DNA from: an uncultured Anaerolineales bacterium
Lineage (GTDB): Bacteria > Chloroflexota > Anaerolineae > CAZYHC01
DNA length: 26,279 nt
Reading direction: 5' to 3'
Assembly (NCBI GenBank): GCA_964646625.1
Contig: CAZYHC010000065.1
Span: 1-26,279, forward strand
A program made the position numbers and the translations under genes. This document shows, piece after piece, positions 7,050 to 19,800 of the stretch; the first letter of the stretch is position 1, and the number at the start of each line of letters is the position of its first letter. The notes under the pieces are model-generated. The model was given only the letters and a program-made list of their open reading frames with translations, did no database searches and was not told the origin of the DNA.

Positions 7050-9071
7050 TCACTGCACTTCCAGGCGCTCGATGACGACGGCATCTGCCTCGGCCCAGCG
7101 GGGGTCGAGGACGTTCAGGCGTTCCATCGTCTCTTGAAAATATAACCCCAGTGCCAGGTGATAGCGCCCGGCCGGGGCTTCCGGGGCCAGGGGCAGCCAG
7201 CACTCCTCCCGGAAAGTCTGGCCTGCCTTCCAGCGGGAGGTGGGGTAGTAACTTAATTGCCTGCTAAGATCCGAGTACAGGATGCTGAGCGGCTGTTTAT
7301 CTAGCTGTCCCCAGCCCTGGCCGTTTGGTCCTACCAGGTGCACGAAAAGGTGGTAATCCCTCTCCATCTCGCTCAAAGCCTGCCAGTAGAGAGTGAGGTG
7401 AAACACCCCCTCTTTCTCCACCACGTTAGAACCCAGATCGTAGCCCAGCAGACGGATCTTATCCTCGAAATCGACCGCCAGGGAGAATTGAGGTTGAGCT
7501 TCCTGATAGAGCGGTATGGGGATCATTTGTACCAGGCCGTAGGGCGGATAGGCGCGTTTGCTGGCTTCCAGGGGGAAATCCAGCAGATAGAGGGGCCGCC
7601 CGGCCTCCAGACAGTTCTCGAACAGCTTTTTGCCCCCTTTCGAGGTCGGGTGGGCGGAGATCACCAGCAGATCGGGACGCTGGTCGGCGGTGTACTGGAA
7701 GTAACGTATGGCCGCCGTCAGCCCCGAAGGGCCGAGGAGCACCGCTTTTTCCTCCAGGGGGCGGGTCAAGACCTGCTGAGCGTAAGTGGCGGCGCTGTAA
7801 TCCCCGCTCATGTCCAATTCAGGGTAATGGCGATACAGGAGGCCCAGAGGAACGACCGCCCACAACAGGTAATAGAAGATGTAGGGAAGCTGGTAGCCTT
7901 TGGCCAGGTTGATAGCTTTCTGCCGGGCGGCGAGGAGAGACCACAGCCAGTCCAGCCCCACTCCCATCCAGATGGCGAAGATGAGGTAGGCGGGCAGGAA
8001 GTAAAACTGAGGCTCCTCGTGCCCCACCAGCGGGAGGCTGTAGGCCATCACCCCCAGGTAAGCCAGCCAGAGGAGAACAGAGGTCTTCCGCCCGATCACG
8101 ATCAGGCGAAAGGCCCCGATAGCGCCCACCAGCAGGCCCAGGGGACCAAACTGGGCAAACTGGGAATCCAGCCACACCCCCAGACGCTCGAAGAAGTGGG
8201 CCAGGGAATATATGCGCAAATAATAGGCGTATTCTCGCCCGGTGACGACGTTAATGAAGCCCGCCAGGGAATGCTGATAGTGGGCCGTGACCTTGCCCCG
8301 CAGGACGGCTTCGGGCAGGCTGGGATACAGTGCTGCGTTAGCCGGATCGGCCTGGGCCAACAGCACCCCTCCCCGCCAGGGAATGTAAAGATAAAGCAAC
8401 AGGGGCAGCAGGCCCACCAGCGCCGGCACCACCAGCCGCTTGAGCTTCAGGCCCGCGGTCAGAAAATAAAAGACGACGTAGGCCGGCAGCAAGAGGAGGA
8501 TCATGCGATGGTGAGCCAGGCTCAGGCCGTATGCCAGGGCAAAAAGCGTCAGCCAGCGGGCGCGTTCGGCCTCCTGTTCCTCTCGCAGCCCTCCCCAGCG
8601 GAGCAGCAGGTAGAGGGTCAGGGCCACGAAGAAAATATTGAGGGCATATACCCTGGCTACCACCGCCCCCGACCAAAAAGTGTGGCTCACCGCCAGGCAG
8701 AAGGCCGCTAAAATGGCCGGGGCGCGGGGTTCGATGACCTGGCGGACGGACAGGTAAACCAGGGGCACGGCCAGCGCAGTAGCCAACGCCGAGAGCAAAT
8801 TTACCCGATAAGCGACGTCCCCCAGCGGAATGAAGGTAAACAACTTGCCCAGCAGGGTGTAAAGCGGATAGCCGGTGGGATACAGCACCCCCAGGATGTA
8901 ACAGCCGTACTGGTGGGCGGCGCTATTGCCATACCACACCGTTGGGGCCATGGTCTTTAGGTAAAGCGCCAGGCTCCCTATAGCCAGAATCAGGGAAACC
9001 AGCCCATCCCCGGCCAACACTCTTTTTCGATTCTCTAATCGAGATTCGTTCACTTGTGCCACTGCCTGCAA
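7050..9071 (-). CDS. DUF2723-family polytopic membrane protein (GT39/PMT/ArnT-like glycosyltransferase fold) with C-terminal soluble domain
   Basis: The N-terminal YGNSAAHQYGCYILGVLYPTGYPLYTLLGKLF matches the DUF2723 signature (HPPGYPLY). There are >10 predicted TM helices and a ~200-aa C-terminal domain. It is the last gene of the minus-strand operon and overlaps the lipoprotein gene. Confidence 0.6.
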   Translation of the reverse strand: MQAVAQVNESRLENRKRVLAGDGLVSLILAIGSLALYLKTMAPTVWYGNSAAHQYGCYILGVLYPTGYPLYTLLGKLFTFIPLGDVAYRVNLLSALATALAVPLVYLSVRQVIEPRAPAILAAFCLAVSHTFWSGAVVARVYALNIFFVALTLYLLLRWGGLREEQEAERARWLTLFALAYGLSLAHHRMILLLLPAYVVFYFLTAGLKLKRLVVPALVGLLPLLLYLYIPWRGGVLLAQADPANAALYPSLPEAVLRGKVTAHYQHSLAGFINVVTGREYAYYLRIYSLAHFFERLGVWLDSQFAQFGPLGLLVGAIGAFRLIVIGRKTSVLLWLAYLGVMAYSLPLVGHEEPQFYFLPAYLIFAIWMGVGLDWLWSLLAARQKAINLAKGYQLPYIFYYLLWAVVPLGLLYRHYPELDMSGDYSAATYAQQVLTRPLEEKAVLLGPSGLTAAIRYFQYTADQRPDLLVISAHPTSKGGKKLFENCLEAGRPLYLLDFPLEASKRAYPPYGLVQMIPIPLYQEAQPQFSLAVDFEDKIRLLGYDLGSNVVEKEGVFHLTLYWQALSEMERDYHLFVHLVGPNGQGWGQLDKQPLSILYSDLSRQLSYYPTSRWKAGQTFREECWLPLAPEAPAGRYHLALGLYFQETMERLNVLDPRWAEADAVVIERLEVQ

Positions 9072-9610
9072 CGCGAGTAATACCAGCGGGGGGATACTTC
9101 CCGACGGGGCCGCTCGGCGGTACGCACCACGTAACGGTCCACCTCCACCCAGCCTACCACCTGACCTCCAGAGATCACCTTCAGGGCCTTATTGCCGCCT
9201 TTTACCTCGGCTGGTTGCAGCCTTTCTCCCCCCTCCAGCACCGAGAGGGCCAGAAGTTCCTCTTTGAATTGGGCCAGCGTCCACCTTTGCGGCTGAAGCT
9301 GGCCGTTCACCAGCATGACCACCTCCTCCGCTCTGGCCCCGAACTGGAGGTTATAATCCCCTTCGGGGCAGGAGGAGGTGGTGGGCGACGGGGTTGGAGT
9401 CGGGAGCGCCGTCTGCGGGGAAAGGGTGGGGGTGCTAAACGGGAAGGCGGGGGTGGGAGAGGGCCAGCCCGTGGGCCACTGCGGCTCAACCACATTATGG
9501 GTGCCCGTGCGTTGGACGCCAATCACGATGTCGCAGCCCGTCGATAAAAATAAGACCAGCGCCAATGGCAACCATAAGATGTCGATAACCCGCCCATTCT
9601 TCAGCGTCAA
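9050..9610 (-). CDS. Putative lipoprotein / exported protein with Pro/Thr-rich linker
   Basis: The ORF-track frame 9050..9739 overlaps the M23 gene in another frame. The plausible start is TTG at 9610, 4 nt after the M23 stop. That start gives MTLKNGRVIDILWLPLALVLFLSTGC, a signal peptide plus lipobox-like Cys. A PT-rich linker (PTPAFPFSTPTLSPQTALPTPTPSPTT) precedes a ~80-aa C-terminal domain. Confidence 0.5.
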   Translation of the reverse strand: MTLKNGRVIDILWLPLALVLFLSTGCDIVIGVQRTGTHNVVEPQWPTGWPSPTPAFPFSTPTLSPQTALPTPTPSPTTSSCPEGDYNLQFGARAEEVVMLVNGQLQPQRWTLAQFKEELLALSVLEGGERLQPAEVKGGNKALKVISGGQVVGWVEVDRYVVRTAERPRREVSPRWYYSRCRQWHK

Positions 9611-9614
9611 CGTT

Positions 9615-10295
9615 TCATTCCCCCGGCAAGAAATACATGGGATCGACAAACCCCCGCCCGCCCGGCTCGAAGGGGTGGTCTGGGGTGCCGGTCCACTGCA
9701 CCCCGACCAGGATCTCGAAATGCAGGTGAGGCCCCCCACTATAGCCCTCGCTGCCTACCCTGGCGATGAGCTGACCGCCGACCACATATTCCCCGGCGCG
9801 GACCAGGGCGGCGCTGTTGTGGGAATAAGTGGAGTATACGTCTTCGCCGTGACTGATGACCACGGCCTGTTCACCCCGTCCCACCCTGGCCCCCCGCAGA
9901 TACAGCCAGCCCACGTAGACCACCAGCCCGTCGCCTACGGCGTAGATGGGCGTGCCGGTCGGGGCACAAAGGTCGATGCCGGTGTGATAACCGGTAGGCT
10001 GGTAGTGGATCGGGTTGCCAAACCGCTGGCACAGCTCGGAAAAGGGCGCCAGGGGATTGTGGGTGATGTAAGCCAGCCCTTCGTATTGCGCCAGCACGGT
10101 CTCGATAGCCTCCCGATCGGTGACGTAGCCCCGCCCCAGTCTTTCCTGCGGGGAGGCCAGCAGGAAGGACACCTTATCCAGAAAAGTGACCACCTCTTTG
10201 GGGCCGACCTGGGTAGCCAGCAGACCCGCGCATAGCCCCACGATCAAAAACACGTCCAGGATCAGCATCCGGCGTCCAGGCTCAGGCCAGGCCAT
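9615..10295 (-). CDS. M23-family peptidoglycan metalloendopeptidase, membrane-anchored
   Basis: HTGIDL (HxxxD), SHNS and GGPHLHFEI (HxH) are the M23 Zn ligand and catalytic motifs. There is an N-terminal TM anchor. It lies 12 nt downstream of the ATPase gene. Confidence 0.85.
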   Translation of the reverse strand: MAWPEPGRRMLILDVFLIVGLCAGLLATQVGPKEVVTFLDKVSFLLASPQERLGRGYVTDREAIETVLAQYEGLAYITHNPLAPFSELCQRFGNPIHYQPTGYHTGIDLCAPTGTPIYAVGDGLVVYVGWLYLRGARVGRGEQAVVISHGEDVYSTYSHNSAALVRAGEYVVGGQLIARVGSEGYSGGPHLHFEILVGVQWTGTPDHPFEPGGRGFVDPMYFLPGE

Positions 10296-10307: not shown

Positions 10308-12530
10308 CTAAACGCCCCAGTGTTTGCGCAGGTCTCGTACCTCCGTCAGCGGCTTGCGGGCGAAAAGCTGCATCTCCCACTCTGTGGGGCTGGAATGCAC
10401 GTCCCGCAGCCATTTGCCTACCTGGAGCACAAAACGTCCCTTGAAAGGAGCCGCCGCGCCCGGGGGCCAGAATCGGCTGATCATGTGCACGATGTGTTCG
10501 CTCTCCAGCAATTGCAATTTGGGCAGAATCGGGTAGTCGTAGGTGAAAAAATCACAGAAAATCTGGGTGGTAGCCATGAGAGCAGCCATGCGCATCGGCT
10601 CGTTAGGGCGGTCGAGCATGGTGAGCGCCTGGGTGGTCCAGATGCCCACCGTGTCCTTGCCCAACCCCTGGGACAGAATTTCGGCCAGAATCAAAAGCCG
10701 GTCATCCGTAGCCGCGGCCCAGGGGAAAACCTCATCCACCACCAGCATCATGGGTTGCCCTTTTTTGGAGAGGCCCTGCACCCAGCGCAAGAAGATAATA
10801 TCCAGTGCGGGCTTGTGTTTCTGAGCCTGATAAAATATGTAACGCTCCTGGTTATAGCTTTGCAGCCGGCGGGCGAAAGCCTCCTGCTCTGTCGGGGCCT
10901 CGTCGGGAGTGATGAACACCCCACCCAGCCGCGAAAACACCCCCCACCATTCCGGGTCTTCGCCCGGCACCAGGGTCTTGTTGTTGATAACCGCGATGCG
11001 CCGGGTCAGACCCAGCATCCACAGCCGATAAAGAATGGTCTGGGCCAGAGTGCTTTTGCCCACCGTGGTCATGCCGATGATCCCCATGTGGCCGGTATGC
11101 CAGGGCGCCAGCGCCACCGGTCGGTTGGTGCGTTCCTCCCGTCCGATGAGGATGGCTTCCCTGGGCACGGCGTAGCCGTGGAAAGAGAGCATCGGTTTAG
11201 CCCGTTCCAGGTTCAGGAGCATGGTATCCCGGCCCGACAATCGATGGGGCACAGTAGGCAACAGGGCGTTCAGGATACGCTCGTTCTGGCGCTGCGAACG
11301 CCATTCCCGGTAGCGGATGCGGTCGTTGTTCAGGCTGTAGAGCGTATCGCGGTACATGGCCTCCAGGCGCTCGGCGGTGTACGCTTTAAGTATCAGCTCG
11401 GCCCGCACGTCGACCGGCATCTCTCCCTTGCGGATGCTGTCCACCACGGCGCGGCGTTGTTCAAACTCGGTTTTGCGATCTTCCGGGAACTCGCGCAGTT
11501 GGTTGCGTTGCTCGTCGCGCGCCAGTTGCATTTCCTCACGGCGGATGGCCAGCGCCCGGTTGCGACGGATAAAAACACTCCATTTCAGGATCACCTCGTC
11601 GCCGCTCTCCGCGATGCGGTCCTGAAGCCTCTCCCGCAATTGGGGGATGGTCATCTCCCCCAGGTGGAGCAGGGTCAGCCCCCGCAGATAGGCCGAGGGT
11701 CTGATAGGCGCGCCGGCCGGGGTCTCCTGAAAAATGACCCCTCTGGAAGTGATCCGCACCCAATCGGGCAGGATGAGCCGCACACAATCGCCAGTTTCCC
11801 GCCCCAGGGAGACGAAAGCTTCCACCCAACGCTCGTCTTGAGGACGGCGCAGGAGACGATAGAAGATGGGGAGAAACTCCACCTCGCGCAGGGAGAAGCT
11901 CAGCAGGCGTTGTCGGACGTAAGATGAGGGATCGCGGTCGAGCGGCCAGGCGATGAACGTTCTCAGCATTTTGGCCTGCTTACTCAGGCTGTGCAGCACC
12001 TCCTGATAGCTCTCCCAGGCCCGTCCGATTTCCTGGCGGACCCTCTTGTCTCGTACCCGCTGTTTGTGGTTCTCTACCTGTTCTTCGGCCCAGGTGCCGT
12101 GGGTGGTCAGATCGGGGGTCCCCATCCACATCAGGTCGAAGATGCACAAGGGAGCACCCAGCACCCCCAATTCCTGGCTGACCTTGTCCAAATCCTGAAC
12201 GTCCAGGTAGGGGAGCTTGTACAGAGCCACCTGGCGCCCATCGGGCCCGGCCAGACACCGGGGCGTGCCTCTGGCCGGCCAGCGTTCGTAGACGCCATCC
12301 AGCCTGCGCTGTCCGGACTCCGACCAGCGCTGCACGGCCTTATCCATCTCCTCCACCCGGATGGCCAACTGAAAGCCCAATTCCTGCACCTGGTCGGTCC
12401 GAGGCTGAATTTTAGTGGCGGCTTTCCTGGCCACTTCGGAACCCAATACCCGGATACGGGCCGTGGAGGCGGTTAAAAGCCCGCTCCCTTTGGTGCGCCA
12501 TGCCACGTCCAACAGATTGATACGCTTCAC
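10308..12530 (-). CDS. FtsK/HerA/VirB4-clade P-loop ATPase with large uncharacterised N-terminal region
   Basis: Walker A in the C-terminal half is HMGIIGMTTVGKST (H-hh-G-x-T-xx-GKS/T, as in VirB4, VirD4 and HerA). Walker B is MMLVVDEVFPW (compare DEAW). It is followed by GKDTVGIWTTQAL (compare RK-G...hhaTQ). The N-terminal ~450 aa has no motif I recognise. Confidence 0.7.
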   Translation of the reverse strand: MKRINLLDVAWRTKGSGLLTASTARIRVLGSEVARKAATKIQPRTDQVQELGFQLAIRVEEMDKAVQRWSESGQRRLDGVYERWPARGTPRCLAGPDGRQVALYKLPYLDVQDLDKVSQELGVLGAPLCIFDLMWMGTPDLTTHGTWAEEQVENHKQRVRDKRVRQEIGRAWESYQEVLHSLSKQAKMLRTFIAWPLDRDPSSYVRQRLLSFSLREVEFLPIFYRLLRRPQDERWVEAFVSLGRETGDCVRLILPDWVRITSRGVIFQETPAGAPIRPSAYLRGLTLLHLGEMTIPQLRERLQDRIAESGDEVILKWSVFIRRNRALAIRREEMQLARDEQRNQLREFPEDRKTEFEQRRAVVDSIRKGEMPVDVRAELILKAYTAERLEAMYRDTLYSLNNDRIRYREWRSQRQNERILNALLPTVPHRLSGRDTMLLNLERAKPMLSFHGYAVPREAILIGREERTNRPVALAPWHTGHMGIIGMTTVGKSTLAQTILYRLWMLGLTRRIAVINNKTLVPGEDPEWWGVFSRLGGVFITPDEAPTEQEAFARRLQSYNQERYIFYQAQKHKPALDIIFLRWVQGLSKKGQPMMLVVDEVFPWAAATDDRLLILAEILSQGLGKDTVGIWTTQALTMLDRPNEPMRMAALMATTQIFCDFFTYDYPILPKLQLLESEHIVHMISRFWPPGAAAPFKGRFVLQVGKWLRDVHSSPTEWEMQLFARKPLTEVRDLRKHWGV

Positions 12531-12620: not shown

Positions 12621-14108
12621 TTACGGCTGGCTGCCCCCCTTTTGGCCGGGGATGCCGGGCGGAAGGGTGATGTCGGAGGGCATGAAGAGAGTGGCGCGGT
12701 CCTCCTTGGGGGTTTCAGCGATCTTTTCCATTAGCTCGATCGTGTAGATAGCCCTCGGGTCACCCTGATGTAGCAGCCAGCTTACCTTTTCCAGAACGGC
12801 TACGTACCGTTGAAGCAGGGCGGGGTCTATCACTCCTCCACCATCGGTCACAGCTTGCAGGAATTGGCCCAGATTCTCGGCCATAGTCGCGTTCATGACC
12901 TGCTCCAATCTGCGCCGGGCTTCGGCCCGGAACTCGGTGGCCTCCTGCTCTCCCCTGGCTTCGATGACATTGACCAGCCGCTCGGTTTCGGCCTGTAGTT
13001 GGCGGATAGCCCGCTCCCAGCTTATCTGGCGATAGTCACGCACCGGCCTTAGAGCCTCGTCGGTCTGAACTTCTACCTTCTCGATAGCCAGGTCCATGAT
13101 CTCCACCCCCCAACGCTCGACGTCTGCCTCCAACCGACGTCGTATCTCGTCCACCACTTCCTCGCGCGGGCTGGAGGTCCCGCTGGTCGTCCGTCTCATA
13201 GCCGGATCGCTGATGTCGTCCAGCGTGTAGCGGGCCACGATCTCCTGGGCCAGGAGTTTGGCCTGATCCCTGACCGCCTGCTGCCAGTCGTCCACCTTGA
13301 AGGCGGCGGCCAGGACGGCCTCCGGGTCGTAGGCCAGGAGGTCGTCCCAGGCAAACTCATCGTAGCGCCCATCTACGGAGCCTCGGCGGACTCGATAACG
13401 CACCAAAAGCTCGATATCGACTTCCACCCCGTCCCTGGTCAAAAGGTCTTCCACTTCCACGGAGTCCGTTTGGGGGTAGAGATCGACGACCGCCACGATG
13501 TATTCGAAATCGTCGGACATGAAGAAACGGCCTGCTATCCGCCTGAACCTTCCAAAGCGTTCGGTGATTACGGCGTCGCCCTTGTTCACCACTACCAGGG
13601 AGGGGCCTAGATCTCTAAGCTTGGAACCTTCGGGAAAGACGGATTTGCCTTCGCTGATAACGTGAACGGAGAGAGGATACATGGCGGTGCTGAGCATGAA
13701 AGCCCGTCTCATACCGATAACACCTTCAAATATCTGCATAATACGCCTGCCTAGCAGCCGTTGCCGCAGGAAGCGGGCATTGCCCAGACCCATCTCCACG
13801 TAGATCAGAGAGGTAAGGCCAAAGGCCGCCTCGAAGATCAACAGGCCCAGGCCCGCCAACAGCAACCCATCCAGCCAGGGAGAGATAGAGACCCTTTCCG
13901 GCTGGGCGAAAAGCCCGGCTATCAGGAGGAGGACCACCCCGAAAAGGACGGTCAAAATGTACCCCATGGGCCAATCCTCCCTGAATAGAGAGTGGTGCAG
14001 GGTTATCCCAGCGCACAGAATAAATATCAGGAGAGGGAACTCCCACCATCCCAGCAGCAAAAGCAGCACCGCGCCGATAAAACCCAACCACAAAAACGCC
14101 TTTATCAT
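12621..14108 (-). CDS. SPFH/band-7 (stomatin/flotillin-like) domain membrane protein
   Basis: Several N-terminal TM helices are followed by an SPFH core (VVVNKGDAVITERFGRFRRIAG...EVDIELLVRYRV...) and then a long Glu/Arg-rich coiled-coil tail. Confidence 0.75.
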   Translation of the reverse strand: MIKAFLWLGFIGAVLLLLLGWWEFPLLIFILCAGITLHHSLFREDWPMGYILTVLFGVVLLLIAGLFAQPERVSISPWLDGLLLAGLGLLIFEAAFGLTSLIYVEMGLGNARFLRQRLLGRRIMQIFEGVIGMRRAFMLSTAMYPLSVHVISEGKSVFPEGSKLRDLGPSLVVVNKGDAVITERFGRFRRIAGRFFMSDDFEYIVAVVDLYPQTDSVEVEDLLTRDGVEVDIELLVRYRVRRGSVDGRYDEFAWDDLLAYDPEAVLAAAFKVDDWQQAVRDQAKLLAQEIVARYTLDDISDPAMRRTTSGTSSPREEVVDEIRRRLEADVERWGVEIMDLAIEKVEVQTDEALRPVRDYRQISWERAIRQLQAETERLVNVIEARGEQEATEFRAEARRRLEQVMNATMAENLGQFLQAVTDGGGVIDPALLQRYVAVLEKVSWLLHQGDPRAIYTIELMEKIAETPKEDRATLFMPSDITLPPGIPGQKGGSQP

Positions 14109-14141: not shown

Positions 14142-14822
14142 TCAAATGCGGATGGTGATAACCAGATCGTACAGAGACGAAACGTACATAAGCAAGACGA
14201 ACCCAATAGCTGCCCCCAACAGAATGGTCAGCAGGGTCAAGACCCTGGTGCGGCGGAATATCCAAAACTGGAAAAGCACCCAGCAGATGAGGCCCACCCC
14301 CAGGGCGACGATCAGCAGCACCTCCAGCCTGGGGTGGCCGACCACGGGCTGCAAGATGCCGTACCAGGTGATAAAGCCGCTCTCCAGGCCCAGCGAGATG
14401 GATACCATTAGCTGCTCCCAGGGGGGGCTGATGGTGTCCACCCGGTGCTCATCCTGGCGGCTCAAAACGGACGGTTTGAGCCCCAGCCAGTAGAGAAAAT
14501 CGTGAGCCCCGTCTCTCCAGGGAATGGTGTAACGAATAATATCGGCCACGATGACCACCGCGGTCAAAACGAGCCAGCCTTTGAGGCCCCGCGGATCGGA
14601 TGGGGTGGCAAACCAGTAGGTCAGCCCCAGGGGTAAGCCCAGGAACATCAGAAAAGCGACCAGGAGCACCTCAAAACGCAAAGGGATGTGCACAATGGGC
14701 AGATAGAACCATTCGTGCTCCAGGGTCAGCATGGTTGACCGAATAAACATATTCTCGTCCCAGGCCTGGATCAGCTTCGCCCATATACTGGTCCCATTCT
14801 TTTCCCTGGACCTGGCAGCCAT
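14142..14822 (-). CDS. Integral membrane protein (~4 TM), function unknown
   Basis: Hydrophobic segments, 12 nt downstream of the large membrane protein gene, same operon. No recognisable motif. Confidence 0.5.
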   Translation of the reverse strand: MAARSREKNGTSIWAKLIQAWDENMFIRSTMLTLEHEWFYLPIVHIPLRFEVLLVAFLMFLGLPLGLTYWFATPSDPRGLKGWLVLTAVVIVADIIRYTIPWRDGAHDFLYWLGLKPSVLSRQDEHRVDTISPPWEQLMVSISLGLESGFITWYGILQPVVGHPRLEVLLIVALGVGLICWVLFQFWIFRRTRVLTLLTILLGAAIGFVLLMYVSSLYDLVITIRI

Positions 14823-14834
14823 TTAACCGCTCCC

Positions 14835-16760
14835 CTAGCCCTGTTTATCTTTGGGCACAACCTGGGCCATCATCTCACGGCCTATACTTTCCATAGAAGC
14901 AGCCAGTTTTTCGTCGGTGGCCCGCAAACGACCGGCATACGCTTTGGCCTGCTCGACGGCCTTTTTGACGGAGATGTATTCCACCGTGCCCACCACGGTG
15001 GCCGCCACAATAGCCCACACCAGAGGGTCAGGCAAATCCACCAGGGTCTTGACGAAAGGTTCTGGCAGGCCGAGCGTTTTCCCCGAAGCCTGGATGAAAG
15101 CATCCAGGCGGGACACCCCGCGGGGCGGCGGTGGATTTGGCGGATTAGATGGCCTGGCCGGCTTCGATGGCTCCGAGGAGCCCGGAGGGGGCTCAGGCCC
15201 CGCAGGAACGACCACCCCCGCCTCCACCGGCGAGCTCACGGTGGCCTCCGAAGGCCACTGCCGGGCCATCTCCACGGGAAGAGTGGTGCTGACCTCTCCC
15301 TGCTCAGTCGGGCCGGTCACGGTATACCCGCTCCTGTGAAGGGTTTCCTGCTCGCTGCGCAGCACTTCCAGGGAACGGCGCAGTTGCTCAATCTCGCTCT
15401 CCTGGACAGTCTCGATGCGTTGCTGTCTCATACGGTCCAGGAAATCGGCTATAAAGTTGATGACTACCGGCAAAGTTGTGCCGGCCACCAGGCCAGCCAG
15501 CAGCGGTGAGGGAGCAGGCGCGGCGGGCACGGCCTCTCTGGGGGGCGGGTCCCCTCCTACCTCCTCGGTCATCCGTTCTAAGGCGGCCGCGGCGCCACCT
15601 ACTATGGTATCAGGCAGACGAGCCCAGGAGTAGACTACGGCCAGCAACGCGAAAGGCCCCACGAAACTGAACGGCGGCGTGTGAATGATGATGGGCGTGA
15701 TCATGATCAATCCGTAGAGCAGGGCCTGAGTGGAGACCGTTCGCAGAAAGGCCACCACCGAGCGCGACATTTGACGGGTGCGGTTCAGGCCCAGACCGGC
15801 CCCCACGTCCCAGGGCAACTTGGCTCCGCGAAAGACCATCTCCAGCAGCCGATAGGTCCCCTGCCAGAGCGTCACCCCCAGAAAGTAGAGCACAAAGATG
15901 CCGACGATGACCGTAATCCAGACCGTGGAGGCGCTCAACAGGTTGGCTATGGTCTGCCACAGCAGCGTCCCCGGCGAAGGACCGGGGGCCAAAGCGTACA
16001 ATTGCTCGACGATAACGCGAAGGCCAAAGCGGGCAGCCCGGATAACCGCTTCGTATAACTCCAGCCCCAACTGGGTGAAGCCGATCAGGACGATCAGGCG
16101 GCTCAGAAGCTCAAAGGGCGTTTCTATGCCCCGTCCCTTCCAGATGATATCCCAATCGGTCATCTGCGCTTCGGACACGCCGGAACGCCTCAACCGCAGG
16201 ATGGCCTTGCGGGCCCGCAATGGATAGTAAACGAGGAAGATGGCCCATCCATAATTGAAGGCCCACAGCAGCAGGTTGAAGATAACACCCCAGGGATTAT
16301 CGGGCGTCATGCTGGGGAAGACCAGGACCTGCTCCGTCCAGTTGTCCCAGGCGGCGGCCAGTTGCTCTCCACCAAGCAGCGTCACCAGGTCAGCGGCCTT
16401 GTGATCGGGGTCGAGGGCGAAGGCCAGGGCCGTCTCCACGGTTTGATCGTCCACGCCCATCAGTCTGGCGAAACTGGCCATGGCTCGCAGCAGTAAATTG
16501 GGCTTACGGGGCGGAGGCGGACCAGGCCCAAACGGAGCAGTAGTGGTCACGGTTACCGTATCCGTGATCTGGGCCCTGGCCTCCAGAATGGGACCATACT
16601 CCACCAAGAAGCCCACCCGCGGTTCTGCTGCCCAGGTTGCCTGGGGGCTTAATATCAAGAGGACTGACAGGCCGACGAGCCCGCCACATAAGAGCATCAT
16701 CTGGAAAGGACGCCCGCCAGGCCCCCTTTCCTGGTGAGGGCGTTCCCTTCCCCAAGGCAT
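14835..16760 (-). CDS. Large polytopic membrane protein (signal peptide, ~7 TM, coiled-coil, Pro-rich C-terminal region, terminal TM); VirB6/TrbL-like architecture (speculative)
   Basis: Likely start is ATG 16760, giving MPWGRERPHQERGPGGRPFQMMLLCGGLVGLSVLLILSPQATWA|AEP. The ORF track begins at TTG 16787. Multiple TM helices are followed by EIEQLRRSLEVLRSEQE and the Pro-rich PAGPEPPPGSSEPSKPARPSNPPNPPPP, then a final hydrophobic helix. Confidence 0.5.
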   Translation of the reverse strand: MPWGRERPHQERGPGGRPFQMMLLCGGLVGLSVLLILSPQATWAAEPRVGFLVEYGPILEARAQITDTVTVTTTAPFGPGPPPPRKPNLLLRAMASFARLMGVDDQTVETALAFALDPDHKAADLVTLLGGEQLAAAWDNWTEQVLVFPSMTPDNPWGVIFNLLLWAFNYGWAIFLVYYPLRARKAILRLRRSGVSEAQMTDWDIIWKGRGIETPFELLSRLIVLIGFTQLGLELYEAVIRAARFGLRVIVEQLYALAPGPSPGTLLWQTIANLLSASTVWITVIVGIFVLYFLGVTLWQGTYRLLEMVFRGAKLPWDVGAGLGLNRTRQMSRSVVAFLRTVSTQALLYGLIMITPIIIHTPPFSFVGPFALLAVVYSWARLPDTIVGGAAAALERMTEEVGGDPPPREAVPAAPAPSPLLAGLVAGTTLPVVINFIADFLDRMRQQRIETVQESEIEQLRRSLEVLRSEQETLHRSGYTVTGPTEQGEVSTTLPVEMARQWPSEATVSSPVEAGVVVPAGPEPPPGSSEPSKPARPSNPPNPPPPRGVSRLDAFIQASGKTLGLPEPFVKTLVDLPDPLVWAIVAATVVGTVEYISVKKAVEQAKAYAGRLRATDEKLAASMESIGREMMAQVVPKDKQG

Positions 16761-16773
16761 CGCGGTCAGAGCG

Positions 16774-17097
16774 TTACCCCCCTCCAAAAATGCTGATGAC
16801 TACTGGCTTGACGAAATTGGCGATCGCGTTCCGCACGTCATCTTTTAAAAGCCAGGCCACCGGAATGGCCACCGCCGTCAGGCCCGCGGTCAGGAATTGA
16901 TCGCGGACCCCTTTCCAGGCGCCAGGGGCGACGGGCTGCCCCGCCGTGGCTGCGTCTCGCTGGACCTTGTTGCTGAAACGCAGCGCACGCCACAACAACC
17001 AGCCAGTGAGAATGGGCGGACCGTAGGTCATCAAGAGCCCCACCAGACGCTGGATGCCGTTCAGGATACCGCTAACACCTGAAACCAACGGCTCCAT
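16774..17097 (-). CDS. Small 2-TM membrane protein, first gene of operon
   Basis: Preferred start is ATG 17097, with AGGAGGTG 6 nt upstream. The ORF track offers TTG 17133. The product MEPLVSGVSGILNGIQRLVGLLMTYGPPILTGWLLW...AVAIPVAWLL is 107 aa. Its stop overlaps the start of the next gene. Confidence 0.45.
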   Translation of the reverse strand: MEPLVSGVSGILNGIQRLVGLLMTYGPPILTGWLLWRALRFSNKVQRDAATAGQPVAPGAWKGVRDQFLTAGLTAVAIPVAWLLKDDVRNAIANFVKPVVISIFGGG

Positions 17098-17163
17098 TAC
17101 CTTCACCTCCTCTCGGTGAAAATTCATGCTCAACTATTTGATACCTGGAGTTTATCTCCCTTT

Positions 17164-17192
17164 ATTATACCTGTAGTTTACTATTAAGTCAA
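17164..17192 (-). promoter_or_regulatory. Consensus sigma70 promoter (TTGACT, 17 nt spacer, TATAAT) for the 8-gene minus-strand operon
   Basis: On the minus strand the -35 TTGACT is at 17192-17187 and the -10 TATAAT at 17169-17164, with exactly 17 nt between. It lies in an AT-rich intergenic island. Confidence 0.55.
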
Positions 17193-17314
17193 GAGCCAAA
17201 AGTTGCGATTTTCTGCAACCAATAGTTCATCCATAGGTGGGAGCGCCCCAACGCGGAGGGTGCGGAAAAGGACCGTGAACGGATAATTGATGGTCAAATA
17301 GGACTAGAGTACTA

Positions 17315-17343
17315 TTGCCTGGGGAACGCAAAAGTGTTATAAT
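17315..17343 (+). promoter_or_regulatory. Consensus sigma70 promoter (TTGCCT, 17 nt spacer, TATAAT) for the Flp pilin gene
   Basis: -35 at 17315-17320 and -10 at 17338-17343. It is followed by AAGGAGGTGA and ATG 17421. Confidence 0.55.
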
Positions 17344-17420
17344 AGCCTTAAGAGTGCTATTTTGTGTTTCTGCGCGACCCTTGTTATTAACGTCAAAAAT
17401 AGAAAGGAGGTGATGAACAA

Positions 17421-17654
17421 ATGTATAGTTATATAAATAACCTGGCAACTTCACTCTCTTTGCTTTATCTATTTTATGTCATACTTTTTTATTTTCAATA
17501 TAGGTGGCTAAGAGTGAGTCTGGCCAGGTTGAACGTTCTCAGAGGGTCGAGTGGACAGGGCCTGGTGGAATACGCCCTCATCCTGGTCATGGTGGCGGTG
17601 GTGGTTATTGCCATCTTGATGTTGCTGGGGCCGGCCATCAGCAACGTCTTTTGA
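17421..17654 (+). CDS. flp: Flp/Fap-family pilin (Tad pilus major subunit) with unusual N-terminal extension
   Basis: GQGLVEYALILVMVAVVVIAILMLLGPAISNVF matches the Flp motif G-X4-EY followed by a hydrophobic helix. The first ~30 codons (MYSYINNLATSLSLLYLFYVILFYFQYRWLR) are AT-rich and hydrophobic. An alternative start is GTG 17513 (RBS AGGTGG), which gives a conventional ~47-aa prepilin. Confidence 0.65.
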   Translation: MYSYINNLATSLSLLYLFYVILFYFQYRWLRVSLARLNVLRGSSGQGLVEYALILVMVAVVVIAILMLLGPAISNVF

Positions 17655-17838: not shown

Positions 17839-19661
17839 CAGTCAGCATCAGGCGGCCGATTGATGTCTGAGGAGACGGGCGGGGGCGGTATTTCCCTGGG
17901 CAGGACTACCTCCAGACGGGTGCCGTGTTCCGGCTGAGAAACGATCTTCAACTGGCCGCCAAGAAGCTGAACCCGCTCCTCGATGCCTAGCAGTCCAAAA
18001 CTGCCCAGGCTGGCCAGGTCGGTGGCTGTTTCGGGCATCACGAACCCCATCCCGTCGTCTTCCACCGAGATCTCCACCTCCTGGGGGTTGAACTGAGCCC
18101 GCACCGTCACCGTTTCGGCCCGGGCGTGTCGGCGCACGTTTTGCAGGGCCTCCTGGACGATGCGATAGATAGCCACCTCCAGGTCGAGCGGCAGGCCCTG
18201 GGGAGACCCGGCAGTTTCCAGATGGGCCTGGATGGAGTCTGAGCGGGCCAGATCGTTGACCAGGAATTGCAAGGCCGGGATCAGGCCCAGGTCCTCCAGG
18301 GCCATAGGCCGCAGATCGCGGCTGAACTGCCGCACGTTTTCGATGGTGGCGGTGACCATGTGCCGGATGTCGCTCAACTGGGCCATCGCTTCCATAAAAT
18401 CTGTATTCGAGGCCTCACCTGGCAGGGAGGCGCGACATAGCTCGATGCGTTGACCAATGGCGATGAGAGACTGGATGGTATCGTCGTGCAGATCGCGGGC
18501 GATGCGTTTGCGCTCCTCCTCCTGGCTGTGGGTGACGGCCGCCACGTAGCGACGCAGGCCGGCCCGGTAACGGTCCACCTGTTCCACCATGGCGTTGAAG
18601 GCCAGGCCCAGCTCCCTGATCTCCTTGATAGTCCCCAGCCCCACCCTGGCGCTGAAATCTCCCCTGGCTACATGGGCGGTCTGGTTGACCAGGTTGGCGA
18701 TGGGCTCGGTGATGCGCCGCACTCCCAGCGAGATCATAGCCGCCGTCAGCGCGAACGTGACGATGAGCACCAGCACGATGATCCGCAGGTAAGAGGCAAT
18801 AGGGGCCACCACCTGCGCCCAGGGCTCCTTGATGACCAAGCCCCAGCCGGTGGCCGACACGATGGCAAAGCCGAAGACCGCCCGCGCTCCCTCGGGGTCC
18901 TGGGCCACCAGCGCCCCTTCTTCGGCGTGCATCAGGTGCTCGACGGGCAGCCGGTCGCTGAAGTCCTGGCCGATAGCCTCGGCCTCGGGGTGATAGATCA
19001 CCCGCCCGTTGCGATCCACCAGGTAGACCAGCCCCCTGTCGCCCACCTTGAGCTTCAACACCGCCTCGCCCAGACGTTGGCGTTCGAGGTAGAAAGTGCC
19101 GGCGATAAGCCCCTGAAACCTCCCCTCCCGCAGGATGGGCGCGGTCACCACGATGACGTTTTCGTTGGAGCCTGTTTCCTGGAAGATGTCCGAAAAGGTG
19201 GGCCGCCGCAGGGCCCGGGTGTTCTGGAAATAGGGGCGGATAGCCATGTTCTGCCCCATGAGGTCGGGACGATTGGGGACGCTTACCGTCACCAGGCCCC
19301 GACCATCCAGGATGATCACCCCGCCGTCGAAGGCATCCAGCAGCCCCTGGGAGTGGGCCAGGGCCAGGGCCTGGCCCTGACGCCGGGCGTCGCCGCTCTT
19401 GAGCTCGTCGCCGTTAGCCAGGGCGGTCAGGATGTCGGCGTAGCTCTCCATGTTCTCCGAAAGGCGGCCCGCCGAAACGCGGGCCAACTCCTGGTCACGG
19501 GCTTCCACCAGCGAACGCACCACCCGCTCGTAGGCGTAGAACCCTGTGGCGGCCCCCAGGGCCAGGATCAGGGCCAGGGGCAGCACGATCCACATCAGGG
19601 CTTGAAGGCGTAGCCCCTGCCACCATCTCCCCTCGTCCGTGCGCTTGTCGTTCATCTTCAC
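17838..19661 (-). CDS. Sensor histidine kinase, HisKA_3/NarL-partner type, with periplasmic sensor domain and HAMP
   Basis: Two TM helices flank a ~270-aa extracytoplasmic domain. A HAMP-like linker follows. The H-box EERKRIARDLHDDTIQSL is the HisKA_3 type. A C-terminal HATPase_c is present (DDGMGF, GSFGLLGIEERV). No response regulator is adjacent. Confidence 0.85.
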   Translation of the reverse strand: MKMNDKRTDEGRWWQGLRLQALMWIVLPLALILALGAATGFYAYERVVRSLVEARDQELARVSAGRLSENMESYADILTALANGDELKSGDARRQGQALALAHSQGLLDAFDGGVIILDGRGLVTVSVPNRPDLMGQNMAIRPYFQNTRALRRPTFSDIFQETGSNENVIVVTAPILREGRFQGLIAGTFYLERQRLGEAVLKLKVGDRGLVYLVDRNGRVIYHPEAEAIGQDFSDRLPVEHLMHAEEGALVAQDPEGARAVFGFAIVSATGWGLVIKEPWAQVVAPIASYLRIIVLVLIVTFALTAAMISLGVRRITEPIANLVNQTAHVARGDFSARVGLGTIKEIRELGLAFNAMVEQVDRYRAGLRRYVAAVTHSQEEERKRIARDLHDDTIQSLIAIGQRIELCRASLPGEASNTDFMEAMAQLSDIRHMVTATIENVRQFSRDLRPMALEDLGLIPALQFLVNDLARSDSIQAHLETAGSPQGLPLDLEVAIYRIVQEALQNVRRHARAETVTVRAQFNPQEVEISVEDDGMGFVMPETATDLASLGSFGLLGIEERVQLLGGQLKIVSQPEHGTRLEVVLPREIPPPPVSSDINRPPDAD

Positions 19662-19700
19662 ATTACTTCCTCATCATGAGGATAGCACTACCATAAAAAA

Positions 19701-19727
19701 AAGTCAAGAGATATGTATCTTTTGACT
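19701..19727. promoter_or_regulatory. Near-perfect palindrome AAGTCAAGAGATAT|GTATCTTTTGACTT containing back-to-back divergent -35 boxes
   Basis: 13/14 positions are symmetric. TTGACT faces each direction. It is a candidate operator shared by the divergent sensor-kinase and M28-operon promoters. Confidence 0.4.
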
Positions 19728-19750
19728 TGCCGGGGTGCTGTGGTATAATT
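19722..19750 (+). promoter_or_regulatory. Consensus sigma70 promoter (TTGACT, 17 nt spacer, TATAAT) for the M28-methyltransferase-ATPase operon
   Basis: -35 at 19722-19727 and -10 at 19745-19750, with exactly 17 nt between. Confidence 0.5.
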
Positions 19751-19800
19751 AAGCACGCTCATCTTTACAGGCATCTGGCCGGGAAGGCTCTTGGGGGCGG

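What the first reader, a model, noticed from the sequence alone, without database searches (positions are those of the whole stretch)
10308..12530. ATPase with divergent Walker A (GMTTVGKST) and an unassignable 450-aa N-terminal region
The C-terminal half carries the clade-specific pre-Walker-A His, the H-hhh-G-x-T-xx-GKS/T pattern, DEVFPW (compare DEAW in VirB4/VirD4) and a following TQ motif. Yet the canonical GSGKS is replaced by TVGKS. The N-terminal ~450 aa (rich in Arg/Glu, no TM helices) has no motif I recognise. This suggests a deep or new branch of the FtsK-HerA superfamily.
Basis: seen in the sequence. Interest (0 to 1): 0.6.

Follow-up and report, generated by a model that had tools for sequence, protein, structure and literature searches.

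The report
Divergent VirB4-like secretion ATPase gene cluster
The 740-residue protein is a very divergent relative of VirB4, the motor ATPase of type IV secretion systems. It sits in a conserved chromosomal cluster with membrane proteins and a cell-wall peptidase but no DNA-transfer genes, so it is an unusual variant of a known machine rather than a new kind of ATPase.

Summary
The ORF (10308-12530, minus strand, 740 aa) and all quoted motifs are real. GMTTVGKS still fits the canonical P-loop GxxxxGK[ST], and R388 VirB4 (TrwK) itself reads GQSSSGKT, so the Walker A is not aberrant.

Curated HMM libraries give only sub-threshold hits. A full HMMER scan of 1.84 billion representatives finds only three related clusters. 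[quoted passage not shown]

Three independent comparisons put VirB4 first:
- hhalign against ten Gram-positive-type (MPF_FATA) VirB4s gives prob 98.2%, E 4e-14, covering residues 236-543. This includes about 220 aa of the supposedly unassignable N-region.
- Foldseek: the top 13 hits are all TrwK.

Residues 1-235 remain unassigned. The Walker A to Walker B spacing is about 110-130 aa against 200-270 aa in VirB4s. A crude tree places the family as its own clade.

The gene order is conserved from the window to the CPR loci: small 2-TM protein, polytopic protein, ~230-aa TM protein, ATPase, M23 peptidase, lipoprotein. No relaxase, coupling protein or integrase lies nearby. The best reading is a relaxase-less, monoderm-type T4SS-like machine, closest to the recently described Patescibacteria T4SS. 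Substrate unknown.

The parts
10308..12530 (-). VirB4-like ATPase, 740 aa (P0001)
11826..12530 (-). ATPase residues 1-235: unassigned N-terminal region
   Evidence: No hhalign match to VirB4 N-termini or to TrsD (prob <=0.2). AF2 pLDDT is mostly <50. W147, W172 and P127 are invariant across the family.
11166..11825 (-). ATPase residues 236-455: VirB4 N-terminal-domain-like region
   Evidence: Aligns to TrsE residues ~23-245. The N-region alone vs the MPF_FATA profile gives prob 75.5, E 2.4e-5 over 208 columns; vs VirD4 or FtsK-like profiles prob <=0.2. It contains the invariant LP..R motif (L424, P425, R430), which aligns with the VirB4 'LPan' motif.
10308..11165 (-). ATPase residues 456-740: compact P-loop (FtsK-HerA type) ATPase domain
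11052..11075 (-). Walker A GMTTVGKS (residues 486-493)
   Evidence: Sequence. Fits GxxxxGK[ST]. G486, G491 and K492 are invariant in the family.
10719..10748 (-). Walker B MLVVDEVFPW (residues 595-604)
   Evidence: D599 and W604 are invariant. It lies only 109 aa after Walker A, against 199-273 aa in known VirB4s.
10629..10637 (-). TTQ motif (residues 632-634)
   Evidence: T632 and Q634 are invariant in all family members.
9615..10295 (-). Membrane-anchored M23 peptidoglycan endopeptidase, 12 nt downstream of the ATPase
   Evidence: Pfam Peptidase_M23 E 2.9e-26. One N-terminal TM segment. HxxxD and HxH motifs are present. An M23 gene follows the ATPase in L001, L005/L007 and L019 as well.
9050..9610 (-). 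Lipoprotein with Pro/Thr-rich linker (TTG start at 9610; lipobox LSTGC)
   Evidence: Start codon read. Architecturally equivalent lipoproteins follow the M23 gene in L001, L007 and L019. hhalign window branch vs CPR branch is not significant (E 0.009).
12621..14108 (-). SPFH/Band_7 membrane protein (accessory; not in all related loci)
   Evidence: Pfam Band_7 E 1.4e-15. 4-5 N-terminal TM segments. An SPFH gene is also adjacent to the P0003 cluster in L004.
14142..14822 (-). 226-aa protein with 4-5 TM segments, conserved position upstream of the ATPase
   Evidence: Topology. hhalign window branch vs CPR branch gives prob 54, E 1.3e-4 over 118 columns. No match to TrsD, VirB3 or VirB6.
14835..16787 (-). 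650-aa polytopic membrane protein (VirB6-like by position and topology only)
   Evidence: 7-8 hydrophobic segments. hhalign window vs CPR counterpart gives prob 24, E 8.5e-4 over 141 columns. No Pfam hit and no hhalign match to TrwI, TcpH, PrgH, Orf15, TrsF or TrsL.
16774..17097 (-). Small 107-aa protein with two hydrophobic segments (VirB3/VirB2-like by size, position and topology only)
   Evidence: The ORF is listed as 16774..17133; the L001 orthologue starts at the internal Met. ~105-aa 2-TM proteins sit at the same position in L007 and L010. No detectable sequence similarity to them or to VirB2/VirB3.
17164..17192 (-). Promoter-like site upstream of the cluster
   Evidence: TTGACT-17-TATAAT, 11 of 12 matches. 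This is a consensus match only.
7050..9071 (-). PMT/TMEM260-like GT-C glycosyltransferase, possibly co-transcribed (overlaps the lipoprotein gene by 22 nt)
   Evidence: Pfam TMEM260-like E 6e-34. Conserved in L001 and not seen at this position in the CPR loci. Membership of the system is uncertain.

Best explanation
The ORF encodes a very divergent VirB4-type ATPase, the signature motor of type IV secretion systems. It belongs to a chromosomally encoded, relaxase-less, monoderm-style T4SS-like gene cluster.

Shown:
- The protein has an intact P-loop ATPase core of the FtsK-HerA superfamily.
- That core is preceded by a region (residues ~236-455) homologous to the N-terminal domain of Gram-positive (MPF_FATA) VirB4s.
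- The gene sits in an operon-like array that is conserved from this high-GC genome to CPR (Microgenomatia-type) genomes. The order is: small 2-TM protein, large polytopic protein, ~230-aa 4-5-TM protein, (SPFH protein here), ATPase, membrane-anchored M23 endopeptidase, lipoprotein.

Inferred, by analogy with pCF10/pCW3/pSK41-type systems and the Patescibacteria T4SS:
- The ATPase oligomerises at the cytoplasmic face of a channel formed by the polytopic and small membrane proteins, and uses ATP hydrolysis to assemble the apparatus and/or drive a substrate through it.
- The M23 peptidase locally opens the peptidoglycan.
- The lipoprotein acts as an extracytoplasmic scaffold.
- No relaxase, coupling protein or integrase is nearby, so the cargo is probably not conjugative DNA. 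It is more likely protein, a surface filament or another macromolecule. The substrate is unknown.
For: Sequence comparison:
- hhalign of the 8-sequence family profile vs 5 VirB4s gives prob 96.2, E 2.6e-9. Against VirD4 it gives prob 8.9 and against FtsK-like coupling proteins prob 42.8.
- Against 10 MPF_FATA VirB4s it gives prob 98.2, E 4.1e-14 over 287 columns (residues 236-543 to TrsE 23-314). The N-region alone gives E 2.4e-5. The reversed control gives prob 0.1.
- The best single match is TrsE of pSK41, prob 86.
- NCBIfam faint hits are led by conju_CD1110 (VirB4-like), matched by 3 of 8 members.

Structure comparison:
- Foldseek vs PDB: ranks 1-13 are all R388 TrwK/VirB4 (E 1e-11 to 1e-6, 480-800 aligned columns). 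EccC/EssC follow at 1e-5.

Gene context:
- The ATPase is followed directly by a cell-wall hydrolase, as in pCW3 (tcpF-tcpG), pCF10 (prgJ-prgK) and other Gram-positive plasmids.
- The order is conserved in L001/L002, L007/L008, L010, L013 and L019, with matching TM topologies.
- There is weak profile similarity between the window and CPR membrane proteins.
- All cluster genes are under purifying selection, dN/dS 0.15-0.53.

Literature: Patescibacteria carry a chromosomal, relaxase-less, MPF_FATA-derived T4SS. The Chisholmbacteria genome that encodes family member P0004/P0008 is listed as VirB4-positive (PMC12102498).
Against: - No curated HMM reaches threshold.
- Residues 1-235 match nothing.
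- The Walker A to Walker B spacing is 109-129 aa against 199-273 aa in VirB4s, so the helical insertion typical of VirB4 is missing. hhalign does not extend past the strand after Walker A.
- The crude NJ tree of ATPase cores leaves the family as a separate clade, not nested in VirB4.
- None of the neighbouring membrane proteins matches VirB2, VirB3, VirB6, VirB8 or TrsD.
- Function is entirely inferred.
Confidence: 0.65

Rival explanations
1. A new, independent branch of the FtsK-HerA superfamily. Its resemblance to VirB4 would be only the shared superfamily fold, and it would work in an unknown membrane process.
For: - Own clade with bootstrap 99 in the NJ tree.
- Compact, FtsK/EssC-like Walker A to B spacing.
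- The best sub-threshold HMM hits are HerA/DUF87 and EccCb.
- Residues 1-235 are unassigned.
- The neighbours match no T4SS component.
Against: - The similarity to VirB4 extends about 220 residues upstream of the P-loop into a region absent from FtsK, HerA and VirD4. It is specific: E 2.4e-5 against VirB4, prob <=0.2 against VirD4 and FtsK-like profiles.
- Foldseek separates VirB4 from all other members by six orders of magnitude.
- The ATPase-hydrolase-polytopic-protein context is that of monoderm T4SSs.
Confidence: 0.15
2. The mating-pair-formation module of a conjugative element (ICE or plasmid). Its relaxase and coupling protein would lie elsewhere or be too divergent to recognise.
For: VirB4 plus hydrolase plus polytopic proteins is the core of Gram-positive conjugation systems. 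Coupling-protein genes can lie far from virB4 (PMC12102498).
Against: - No relaxase, VirD4/TcpA-type ATPase, integrase or replication gene lies in the 26-kb window or within +/-10 kb in L001, L002 and L007.
- The flanks are ordinary chromosomal genes and are syntenic between two genomes.
- In the CPR genome the cluster lies beside ParB, L21, L27, FtsW and IleRS.
- tblastn against 72,556 plasmids finds nothing.
Confidence: 0.08
3. An ATP-driven regulator of cell-wall hydrolysis, analogous in logic to FtsEX-EnvC/PcsB. The ATPase and membrane proteins would control the M23 peptidase for growth or division rather than secretion.
For: The ATPase-M23 linkage is strictly conserved. There is no identifiable substrate, pilin or coupling protein. 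The CPR copy lies near FtsW and ParB.
Against: The ATPase is VirB4-like, not ABC-type. A hydrolase directly after VirB4 is standard in monoderm T4SSs. A large polytopic protein plus small TM proteins fits a translocon.
Confidence: 0.07
4. An anti-phage defence or DNA-processing HerA/FtsK-type ATPase (for example MADS mad8-like, Dnd/DptH-like or HerA-NurA-like).
Against: The hits cover only the generic P-loop region. No nuclease, Sir2, methyltransferase, Dnd or NurA partner lies in the cluster. The partners are all membrane or cell-wall proteins.
Confidence: 0.03

Closest known systems
VirB4 ATPases of monoderm (MPF_FATA) type IV secretion systems: TrsE (pSK41/pGO1), PrgJ (pCF10), a plasmid-borne VirB4 annotated next to a pLS20_p028-family protein (L024), PcpB4
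   Same: - A P-loop ATPase preceded by a homologous N-terminal domain (hhalign prob 98.2, E 4e-14 over residues 236-543).
- The motif after Walker A, a strand followed by GG.
- Soluble, with no TM segments.
- The gene sits directly upstream of a peptidoglycan hydrolase and downstream of small TM and ~200-300-aa proteins.
   Different: - About 16% identity in the aligned part.
- Walker A to B spacing is halved (109-129 vs 199-273 aa).
- Walker B context is DExxxW rather than DE(A/C/F)(W/H).
- An extra unassigned ~235-aa N-terminus.
- The hydrolase is an M23 endopeptidase rather than a lysozyme/CHAP/NlpC enzyme.
- No relaxase or coupling protein.
- Own clade in a crude tree.
Patescibacteria (CPR) T4SS described by Quinonero-Coronel et al. 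2025 (PMC12102498) and Wang et al. 2023
   Same: - Chromosomal, relaxase-less VirB4-centred cluster of MPF_FATA ancestry.
- Peptidase or lysozyme genes lie immediately downstream of virB4.
- VirB6 and VirB3 are too divergent to detect in Microgenomatia.
- The only relatives of the window protein found include a Chisholmbacteria (Microgenomatia) protein from a genome scored VirB4-positive in that study.
   Different: - The window appears to come from a non-CPR organism. It has 60% GC, multidomain sensor kinases, a STAND-PD40 protein and an FGGY kinase; this is inference.
- No TrsD homologue or VirB2-like pilin array was detected.
- An SPFH protein is inserted in the operon.
- Whether the family lies inside the published Patescibacteria VirB4 clade could not be tested.
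R388 TrwK/VirB4 (PDB 7o41, 7o42, 8rtb, 8rtd) and Thermoanaerobacter VirB4 C-domain (4ag5)
   Different: TM-score is only ~0.32 and the model is low confidence. TrwK passes Pfam CagE_TrbE_VirB (E 4.5e-35); this protein does not. The diderm outer-membrane components (VirB7, VirB9, VirB10) are absent here.
EssC/EccC (type VII secretion) and FtsK/SpoIIIE translocases
   Same: Same superfamily. Compact Walker A to B spacing. Sub-threshold HMM hits around the P-loop. Foldseek E ~1e-5.
   Different: A single ATPase domain, with no FHA domain, no TM helices and no WXG100 or other T7SS genes. hhalign vs FtsK-like coupling proteins matches only the P-loop (32 columns, prob 43).

Membership tests
VirB4 (T4SS signature ATPase) | C-terminal FtsK-HerA-type P-loop domain with Walker A GxxxxGK[ST] and Walker B hhhhD[ED] | tested here: met
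VirB4 (T4SS signature ATPase) | VirB4-specific N-terminal domain directly preceding the ATPase domain | tested here: met
   Residues ~236-455 align to TrsE-type N-domains. N-region alone: prob 75.5, E 2.4e-5 over 208 columns. With the P-loop region: prob 98.2, E 4e-14. Reversed control 0.1; VirD4 and FtsK-like profiles <=0.2. The Foldseek alignments to TrwK span 650-800 columns.
VirB4 (T4SS signature ATPase) | Extreme N-terminal portion (the part that is a separate TrsD protein in pGO1-type systems) recognisable | tested here: inconclusive
   Residues 1-235(376) vs VirB4 N-termini and vs a 7-sequence TrsD profile give prob <=0.2. The profiles are shallow and the model pLDDT is <50 there.
VirB4 (T4SS signature ATPase) | Scores above the curated cut-offs of VirB4 models (Pfam CagE_TrbE_VirB, AAA_10, P-loop_TraG, DUF87; NCBIfam conju_CD1110) | tested here: not met
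   The best Pfam hit is DUF87 at 16.9 bits (cut-off 23.2). conju_CD1110 reaches E 0.15 at best. Control: PrgJ and the plasmid VirB4 in L024 also fail Pfam cut-offs, whereas TrsE, TcpF and TrwK pass.
VirB4 (T4SS signature ATPase) | Long (~200-270 aa) segment with helical insertion between Walker A and Walker B | tested here: not met
   109-129 aa in all family members against 199-273 aa in the 10 VirB4s where both motifs were found.
VirB4 (T4SS signature ATPase) | Groups with VirB4s in a phylogeny of FtsK-HerA ATPases | tested here: inconclusive
   In an NJ/BLOSUM62 tree of 23 ATPase cores the family is monophyletic (bootstrap 99) but joins at an unresolved base, not inside VirB4. The method and sampling are crude.
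VirB4 (T4SS signature ATPase) | Encoded with other T4SS parts (VirB3-, VirB6-, VirB8-like proteins, cell-wall hydrolase) | tested here: inconclusive
   The hydrolase (M23) is present and conserved. Small 2-TM and polytopic proteins sit at the expected positions with the expected topology. There is no sequence match to any VirB2, VirB3, VirB6, VirB8 or TrsD protein tested.
VirB4 (T4SS signature ATPase) | ATP hydrolysis, oligomerisation at the membrane channel, requirement for secretion | not testable with these tools
   Biochemical and genetic properties.
Conjugative T4SS / ICE | Relaxase and type IV coupling protein (VirD4 or TcpA type), usually with an integrase or replicon | tested here: not met
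   None in the 26-kb window or in +/-10 kb of L001, L002 and L007. No plasmid match.
Patescibacteria T4SS (PMC12102498) | Chromosomal VirB4 cluster without relaxase; peptidoglycan-degrading enzyme next to virB4 | tested here: met
   Description of the system.
Patescibacteria T4SS (PMC12102498) | VirB4 falls inside the monophyletic Patescibacteria VirB4 clade | not tested
   No sequence of that clade could be fetched. Only an indirect link exists: the source genome of P0004 (GCA_001816915.1) is flagged VirB4-positive in their Table S1, but the accession OGY20830 was not found in the stored part of the supplement.
Patescibacteria T4SS (PMC12102498) | TrsD homologue and VirB2-like pilin genes near virB4 | tested here: not met
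   The ~230-aa upstream protein is polytopic and does not match a TrsD profile (prob 0.2). The known TrsD proteins tested have no TM segments. The small protein does not match TrwL or TrsB.
EssC/EccC (T7SS) or FtsK/SpoIIIE | TM anchor, FHA domains (EssC) and two or three tandem ATPase domains, or gamma-domain DNA translocase | tested here: not met
   One Walker A per protein. Only 32 columns around the P-loop align to FtsK-like proteins.
HerA-NurA / HerA-type defence ATPases | Partner nuclease or effector (NurA, Sir2, DUF4297 and similar) and HAS-barrel N-domain | tested here: not met

The most novel reading that the evidence does not exclude
The cluster could represent a previously unclassified class of T4SS-like machine. 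Its features would be a compact VirB4 lacking the helical insertion, an M23 peptidase, a lipoprotein, unrecognisable membrane parts and sometimes an SPFH scaffold. It would be shared by a few Microgenomatia-type CPR bacteria and a high-GC non-CPR bacterium. That distribution would mean either vertical inheritance from a common Terrabacteria/CPR ancestor or exchange between an epibiont and its host lineage. The system would have a non-conjugative function.
Probability: 0.25. Interest if true: 0.7.

Novelty: new variant of a known kind. Interest (0 to 1): 0.45.

Why it matters
VirB4 is the only universal marker used to find and classify type IV secretion systems. A lineage that escapes the Pfam and NCBIfam models tested here, has a shortened ATPase core and lacks DNA-processing partners would be missed by screens that rely on such models. 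Its nearest relatives are in CPR bacteria, where a relaxase-less T4SS was recently shown to be essential for epibiotic growth. If the same type of machine exists in a free-living-looking, high-GC bacterium, it offers a second setting in which to ask what such T4SSs export. It also bears on whether the CPR system was inherited or acquired. The practical lesson is more modest: a missing Pfam hit is not good evidence of a new ATPase family for monoderm VirB4s, because PrgJ itself fails the Pfam thresholds.

Tried and rejected
- The word-indexed homologue search found only the protein itself and an 88% orthologue. Repeating it with family alignments added only P0012.
- The search for related loci with the whole-family alignment failed for lack of a conserved stretch. 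With the CPR sub-alignments it returned only the known Chisholmbacteria contig and one new partial member, L013.
- The single-sequence AF2 model was useless (pLDDT 36). The afdb50 fold library was unavailable.
- phmmer and a family profile against PDB sequences gave only insignificant P-loop hits.
- PHROGs found nothing for the ATPase. PADLOC gave only a weak mad8 P-loop hit, rejected as defence because no defence partners are present.
- tblastn against plasmids found no match.
- BLASTP between window and CPR neighbours found nothing. hhalign of the neighbours against VirB2, VirB3, VirB6, VirB8 and TrsD found nothing.
- The idea that the window PMT-like glycosyltransferase is related to the polytopic L007 420-aa protein was rejected.
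- The organism could not be identified: no tRNA or rRNA genes, no named cluster members, and no paper mentions the assemblies. A look-up of P0001's contig failed.
- P0005 from the representative search is a low-complexity repeat artefact.
Full report
**Observation.**
The window carries an uninterrupted ORF at 10308..12530 on the minus strand (GTG start, 740 aa). All quoted strings are present: HMGIIGMTTVGKST, MLVVDEVFPW and TTQ. The gene is real. An 88%-identical orthologue (P0002) occurs in two other assemblies in fully syntenic surroundings, and dN/dS is 0.15.

Two parts of the description are overstated. First, GMTTVGKS satisfies the canonical P-loop GxxxxGK[ST]. The distant family members have G(S/T)TG(S/A)GKS or GTPSSGKT, and the archetypal VirB4 TrwK has GQSSSGKT. 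The Thr-Val is therefore a lineage-specific substitution in an intact Walker A. Second, the N-terminal 450 aa is only partly unassignable (see below).

**How rare is it, and who are its relatives.**
Pfam and NCBIfam give only sub-threshold hits around the P-loop: DUF87/HerA at 16.9 bits against a 23.2 cut-off, and EccCb at E 0.003. A full HMMER scan of 1.84 billion representative proteins returned three genuine relatives, P0003, P0004 and P0006, with E 4e-11 to 9e-5 and 23-29% identity in the matched stretches (about 21% in the full-length alignment A1). It also returned one repeat artefact. Their full-length forms are P0007 (778 aa) and P0008 (817 aa). Later searches added P0012 and a partial gene in L013.

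P0004/P0008 comes from Candidatus Chisholmbacteria (CPR, class Microgenomatia). The family aligns end to end, with invariant residues in both halves: P127, W172, L424, P425, R430, G486, G491, K492, D599, W604, T632, Q634. This rarity refers to relatives that HMMER can reach from the window protein. It does not bound the size of a wider clade.

**What the protein is.**
Three independent comparisons put VirB4 first.

- *Profile-profile comparison.* I fetched annotated VirB4, VirD4 and FtsK-like coupling proteins from R388, pCW3, pCF10/Tn916 and pSK41.
  - The family profile matches a 5-sequence VirB4 profile at prob 96.2, E 2.6e-9. It matches VirD4 at prob 8.9 and FtsK-like proteins at prob 42.8, P-loop only.
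  - After adding eight more Gram-positive VirB4s, the match to a 10-sequence MPF_FATA profile rises to prob 98.2, E 4.1e-14 over 287 columns. It covers residues 236-543 of the window protein against residues 23-314 of TrsE.
  - The N-region alone scores prob 75.5, E 2.4e-5. The C-domain alone scores prob 96.3. Reversed-sequence controls score 0.1.
  - For calibration, known VirB4s of different classes barely detect each other as single sequences, for example TrwK vs TcpF at prob 0.1.
- *Foldseek.* Using an AF2 model built from the 8-sequence alignment (pLDDT 50.6, pTM 0.43, so low confidence), ranks 1-13 are all TrwK/VirB4 chains. They have E 1e-11 to 1e-6 and 480-800 aligned columns. EccC/EssC follow at 1e-5, FtsK at 1e-3 and HerA at 2e-3.

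In addition, NCBIfam's faint matches are led by the VirB4-like conju_CD1110 family.

**In what it differs from VirB4.**
- Residues 1-235 match neither VirB4 N-termini nor TrsD.
- The Walker A to Walker B distance is 109-129 aa in every family member, against 199-273 aa in the ten VirB4s where both motifs could be located. The helical insertion is therefore missing, and hhalign cannot extend beyond the strand and GG motif that follow Walker A.
- Walker B is followed by W at +4 (DExxxW) rather than +2.
- In a crude NJ tree of ATPase cores the family is monophyletic (bootstrap 99) but attaches at an unresolved base, not inside the sampled VirB4s.
- Failure to reach Pfam thresholds is not by itself remarkable. 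PrgJ of pCF10 and the plasmid gene annotated as VirB4 in L024 fail them too.

**Context.**
The ATPase lies in a tightly packed minus-strand array, with gaps of 5-90 nt or overlaps, behind a strong promoter-like site at 17192-17164. In order, the array holds:

- a 107-aa protein with two hydrophobic segments (16774-17097)
- a 650-aa polytopic protein (14835-16787)
- a 226-aa protein with 4-5 TM segments (14142-14822)
- an SPFH/Band_7 membrane protein (12621-14108)
- the ATPase
- a membrane-anchored M23 peptidase (9615-10295, Pfam E 3e-26)
- a lipoprotein with a Pro/Thr-rich linker (9050-9610; TTG start and lipobox read)
- a PMT/TMEM260-like glycosyltransferase that overlaps the lipoprotein gene (7050-9071)

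The CPR loci show the same order and the same topologies: a ~105-aa 2-TM protein, a ~500-aa polytopic protein, a ~235-aa 4-5-TM protein, the ATPase, an M23 peptidase and a lipoprotein (L007, L010, L013, L019). BLASTP sees no similarity between the window and CPR membrane proteins. hhalign gives weak signals: polytopic E 8.5e-4, ~230-aa protein E 1.3e-4, M23 E 3e-8.

None of these proteins matches VirB2, VirB3, VirB6, VirB8 or TrsD from the reference plasmids. Their T4SS roles are therefore inferred from position and topology only. An ATPase gene followed directly by a wall hydrolase, preceded by small TM proteins and a ~200-300-aa protein, is the layout of pCW3, pCF10, pSK41 and other Gram-positive plasmids.

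No relaxase, VirD4/TcpA-type coupling protein, integrase or replication gene occurs in the window or within 10 kb in L001, L002 and L007. The flanks are ordinary chromosomal genes, and in the CPR genome the cluster sits beside ParB, L21, L27, FtsW and IleRS. All cluster genes are under purifying selection.

**Comparison with what is known.**
Quinonero-Coronel et al. 2025 (PMC12102498) describe a chromosomal, relaxase-less T4SS in about 80% of Patescibacteria genomes. Its VirB4 clade is nested in MPF_FATA, peptidase or lysozyme genes lie next to virB4, and VirB6 and VirB3 in Microgenomatia are too divergent to detect. A 2025 review calls these systems essential for epibiotic growth (PMC12857230). 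The Chisholmbacteria genome encoding P0004 is flagged VirB4-positive in their Table S1. I could not confirm that P0004 is the protein they detected.

The window itself looks non-CPR: about 60% GC, dCache-HAMP and GAF histidine kinases, a STAND-PD40 protein and an FGGY kinase. Its taxonomy could not be established.

**Verdict.**
The finding is a real, conserved gene. The best explanation (confidence about 0.65) is a highly divergent VirB4-type ATPase that powers a relaxase-less, monoderm-style T4SS-like apparatus. In this model the M23 peptidase opens the wall and the membrane proteins form the channel. The cargo is unknown and probably not conjugative DNA.

The VirB4 homology of residues 236-543 and the conserved gene order are shown. 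Oligomerisation, the channel roles and secretion are inferred. The main rival (about 0.15) is an independent FtsK-HerA branch with only superficial VirB4 resemblance.

I rate it a new variant of a known kind with moderate interest. The most novel reading still open is a distinct T4SS class shared between CPR bacteria and a non-CPR lineage.

Noticed in passing
window 17421-17654 (+), spacer 17134-17420: An Flp/Fap-pilin-like ORF (GQGLVEYALILV...; Pfam Flp_Fap E 4e-5, below threshold) is transcribed divergently from the cluster. The spacer is AT-rich (GC drops to 0.49) and has promoter-like sites on both strands. The ORF is conserved in L001/L002 and absent from the CPR loci. No Tad ATPase or prepilin peptidase is in the window.
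   Followed up: partly
window 7050-9071 (-) and 9050-9610 (-): A PMT/TMEM260-like protein O-mannosyltransferase gene overlaps by 22 nt the end of the lipoprotein gene. The lipoprotein has a Pro/Thr/Ser-rich linker, which makes it a plausible glycosylation substrate. The pair is conserved in L001.
   Followed up: no
window 12621-14108 (-); L004 442-1395: An SPFH/Band_7 protein with 4-5 N-terminal TM segments is inserted between the membrane proteins and the ATPase. A shorter SPFH gene also lies next to the P0003 cluster on the opposite strand. L007 has none within 10 kb.
   Followed up: partly
L001/L002 2127-2841 vs window 19661-19801: The 88%-related genomes carry an 85-aa gene plus a PIN-domain toxin between the histidine kinase and the M28 peptidase. 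The window has only a 140-bp spacer there, so a toxin-antitoxin pair has been gained or lost.
   Followed up: no
window 21630-23846 (+): A 738-aa protein fuses a STAND/AAA_16 NTPase, a TM segment, a Pro/Thr-rich linker and five PD40 beta-propeller repeats.
   Followed up: no
L016 21206-23596 (pCF10 prgJ); L024 1989-3884: The experimentally established VirB4 PrgJ reaches only 20.9 bits on Pfam DUF87 (cut-off 23.2). A plasmid gene annotated as VirB4 (next to a pLS20_p028-family protein) reaches only 24.1 bits on P-loop_TraG (cut-off 25.8). Pfam therefore under-detects monoderm VirB4s in general.
   Followed up: yes
L020-L026 (Gram-positive plasmids): A 190-300-aa protein without TM segments (TrsD or 'hypothetical') sits immediately upstream of VirB4 in seven MPF_FATA loci. 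The protein at the equivalent position in this family is of similar size but polytopic and unrelated in sequence.
   Followed up: partly
L007 5319-6581 (+): A 420-aa polytopic protein with no Pfam hit lies between a polysaccharide-synthesis gene block and the cluster in the Chisholmbacteria contig. It is not similar to the window's PMT-like protein (BLASTP E 0.4).
   Followed up: yes
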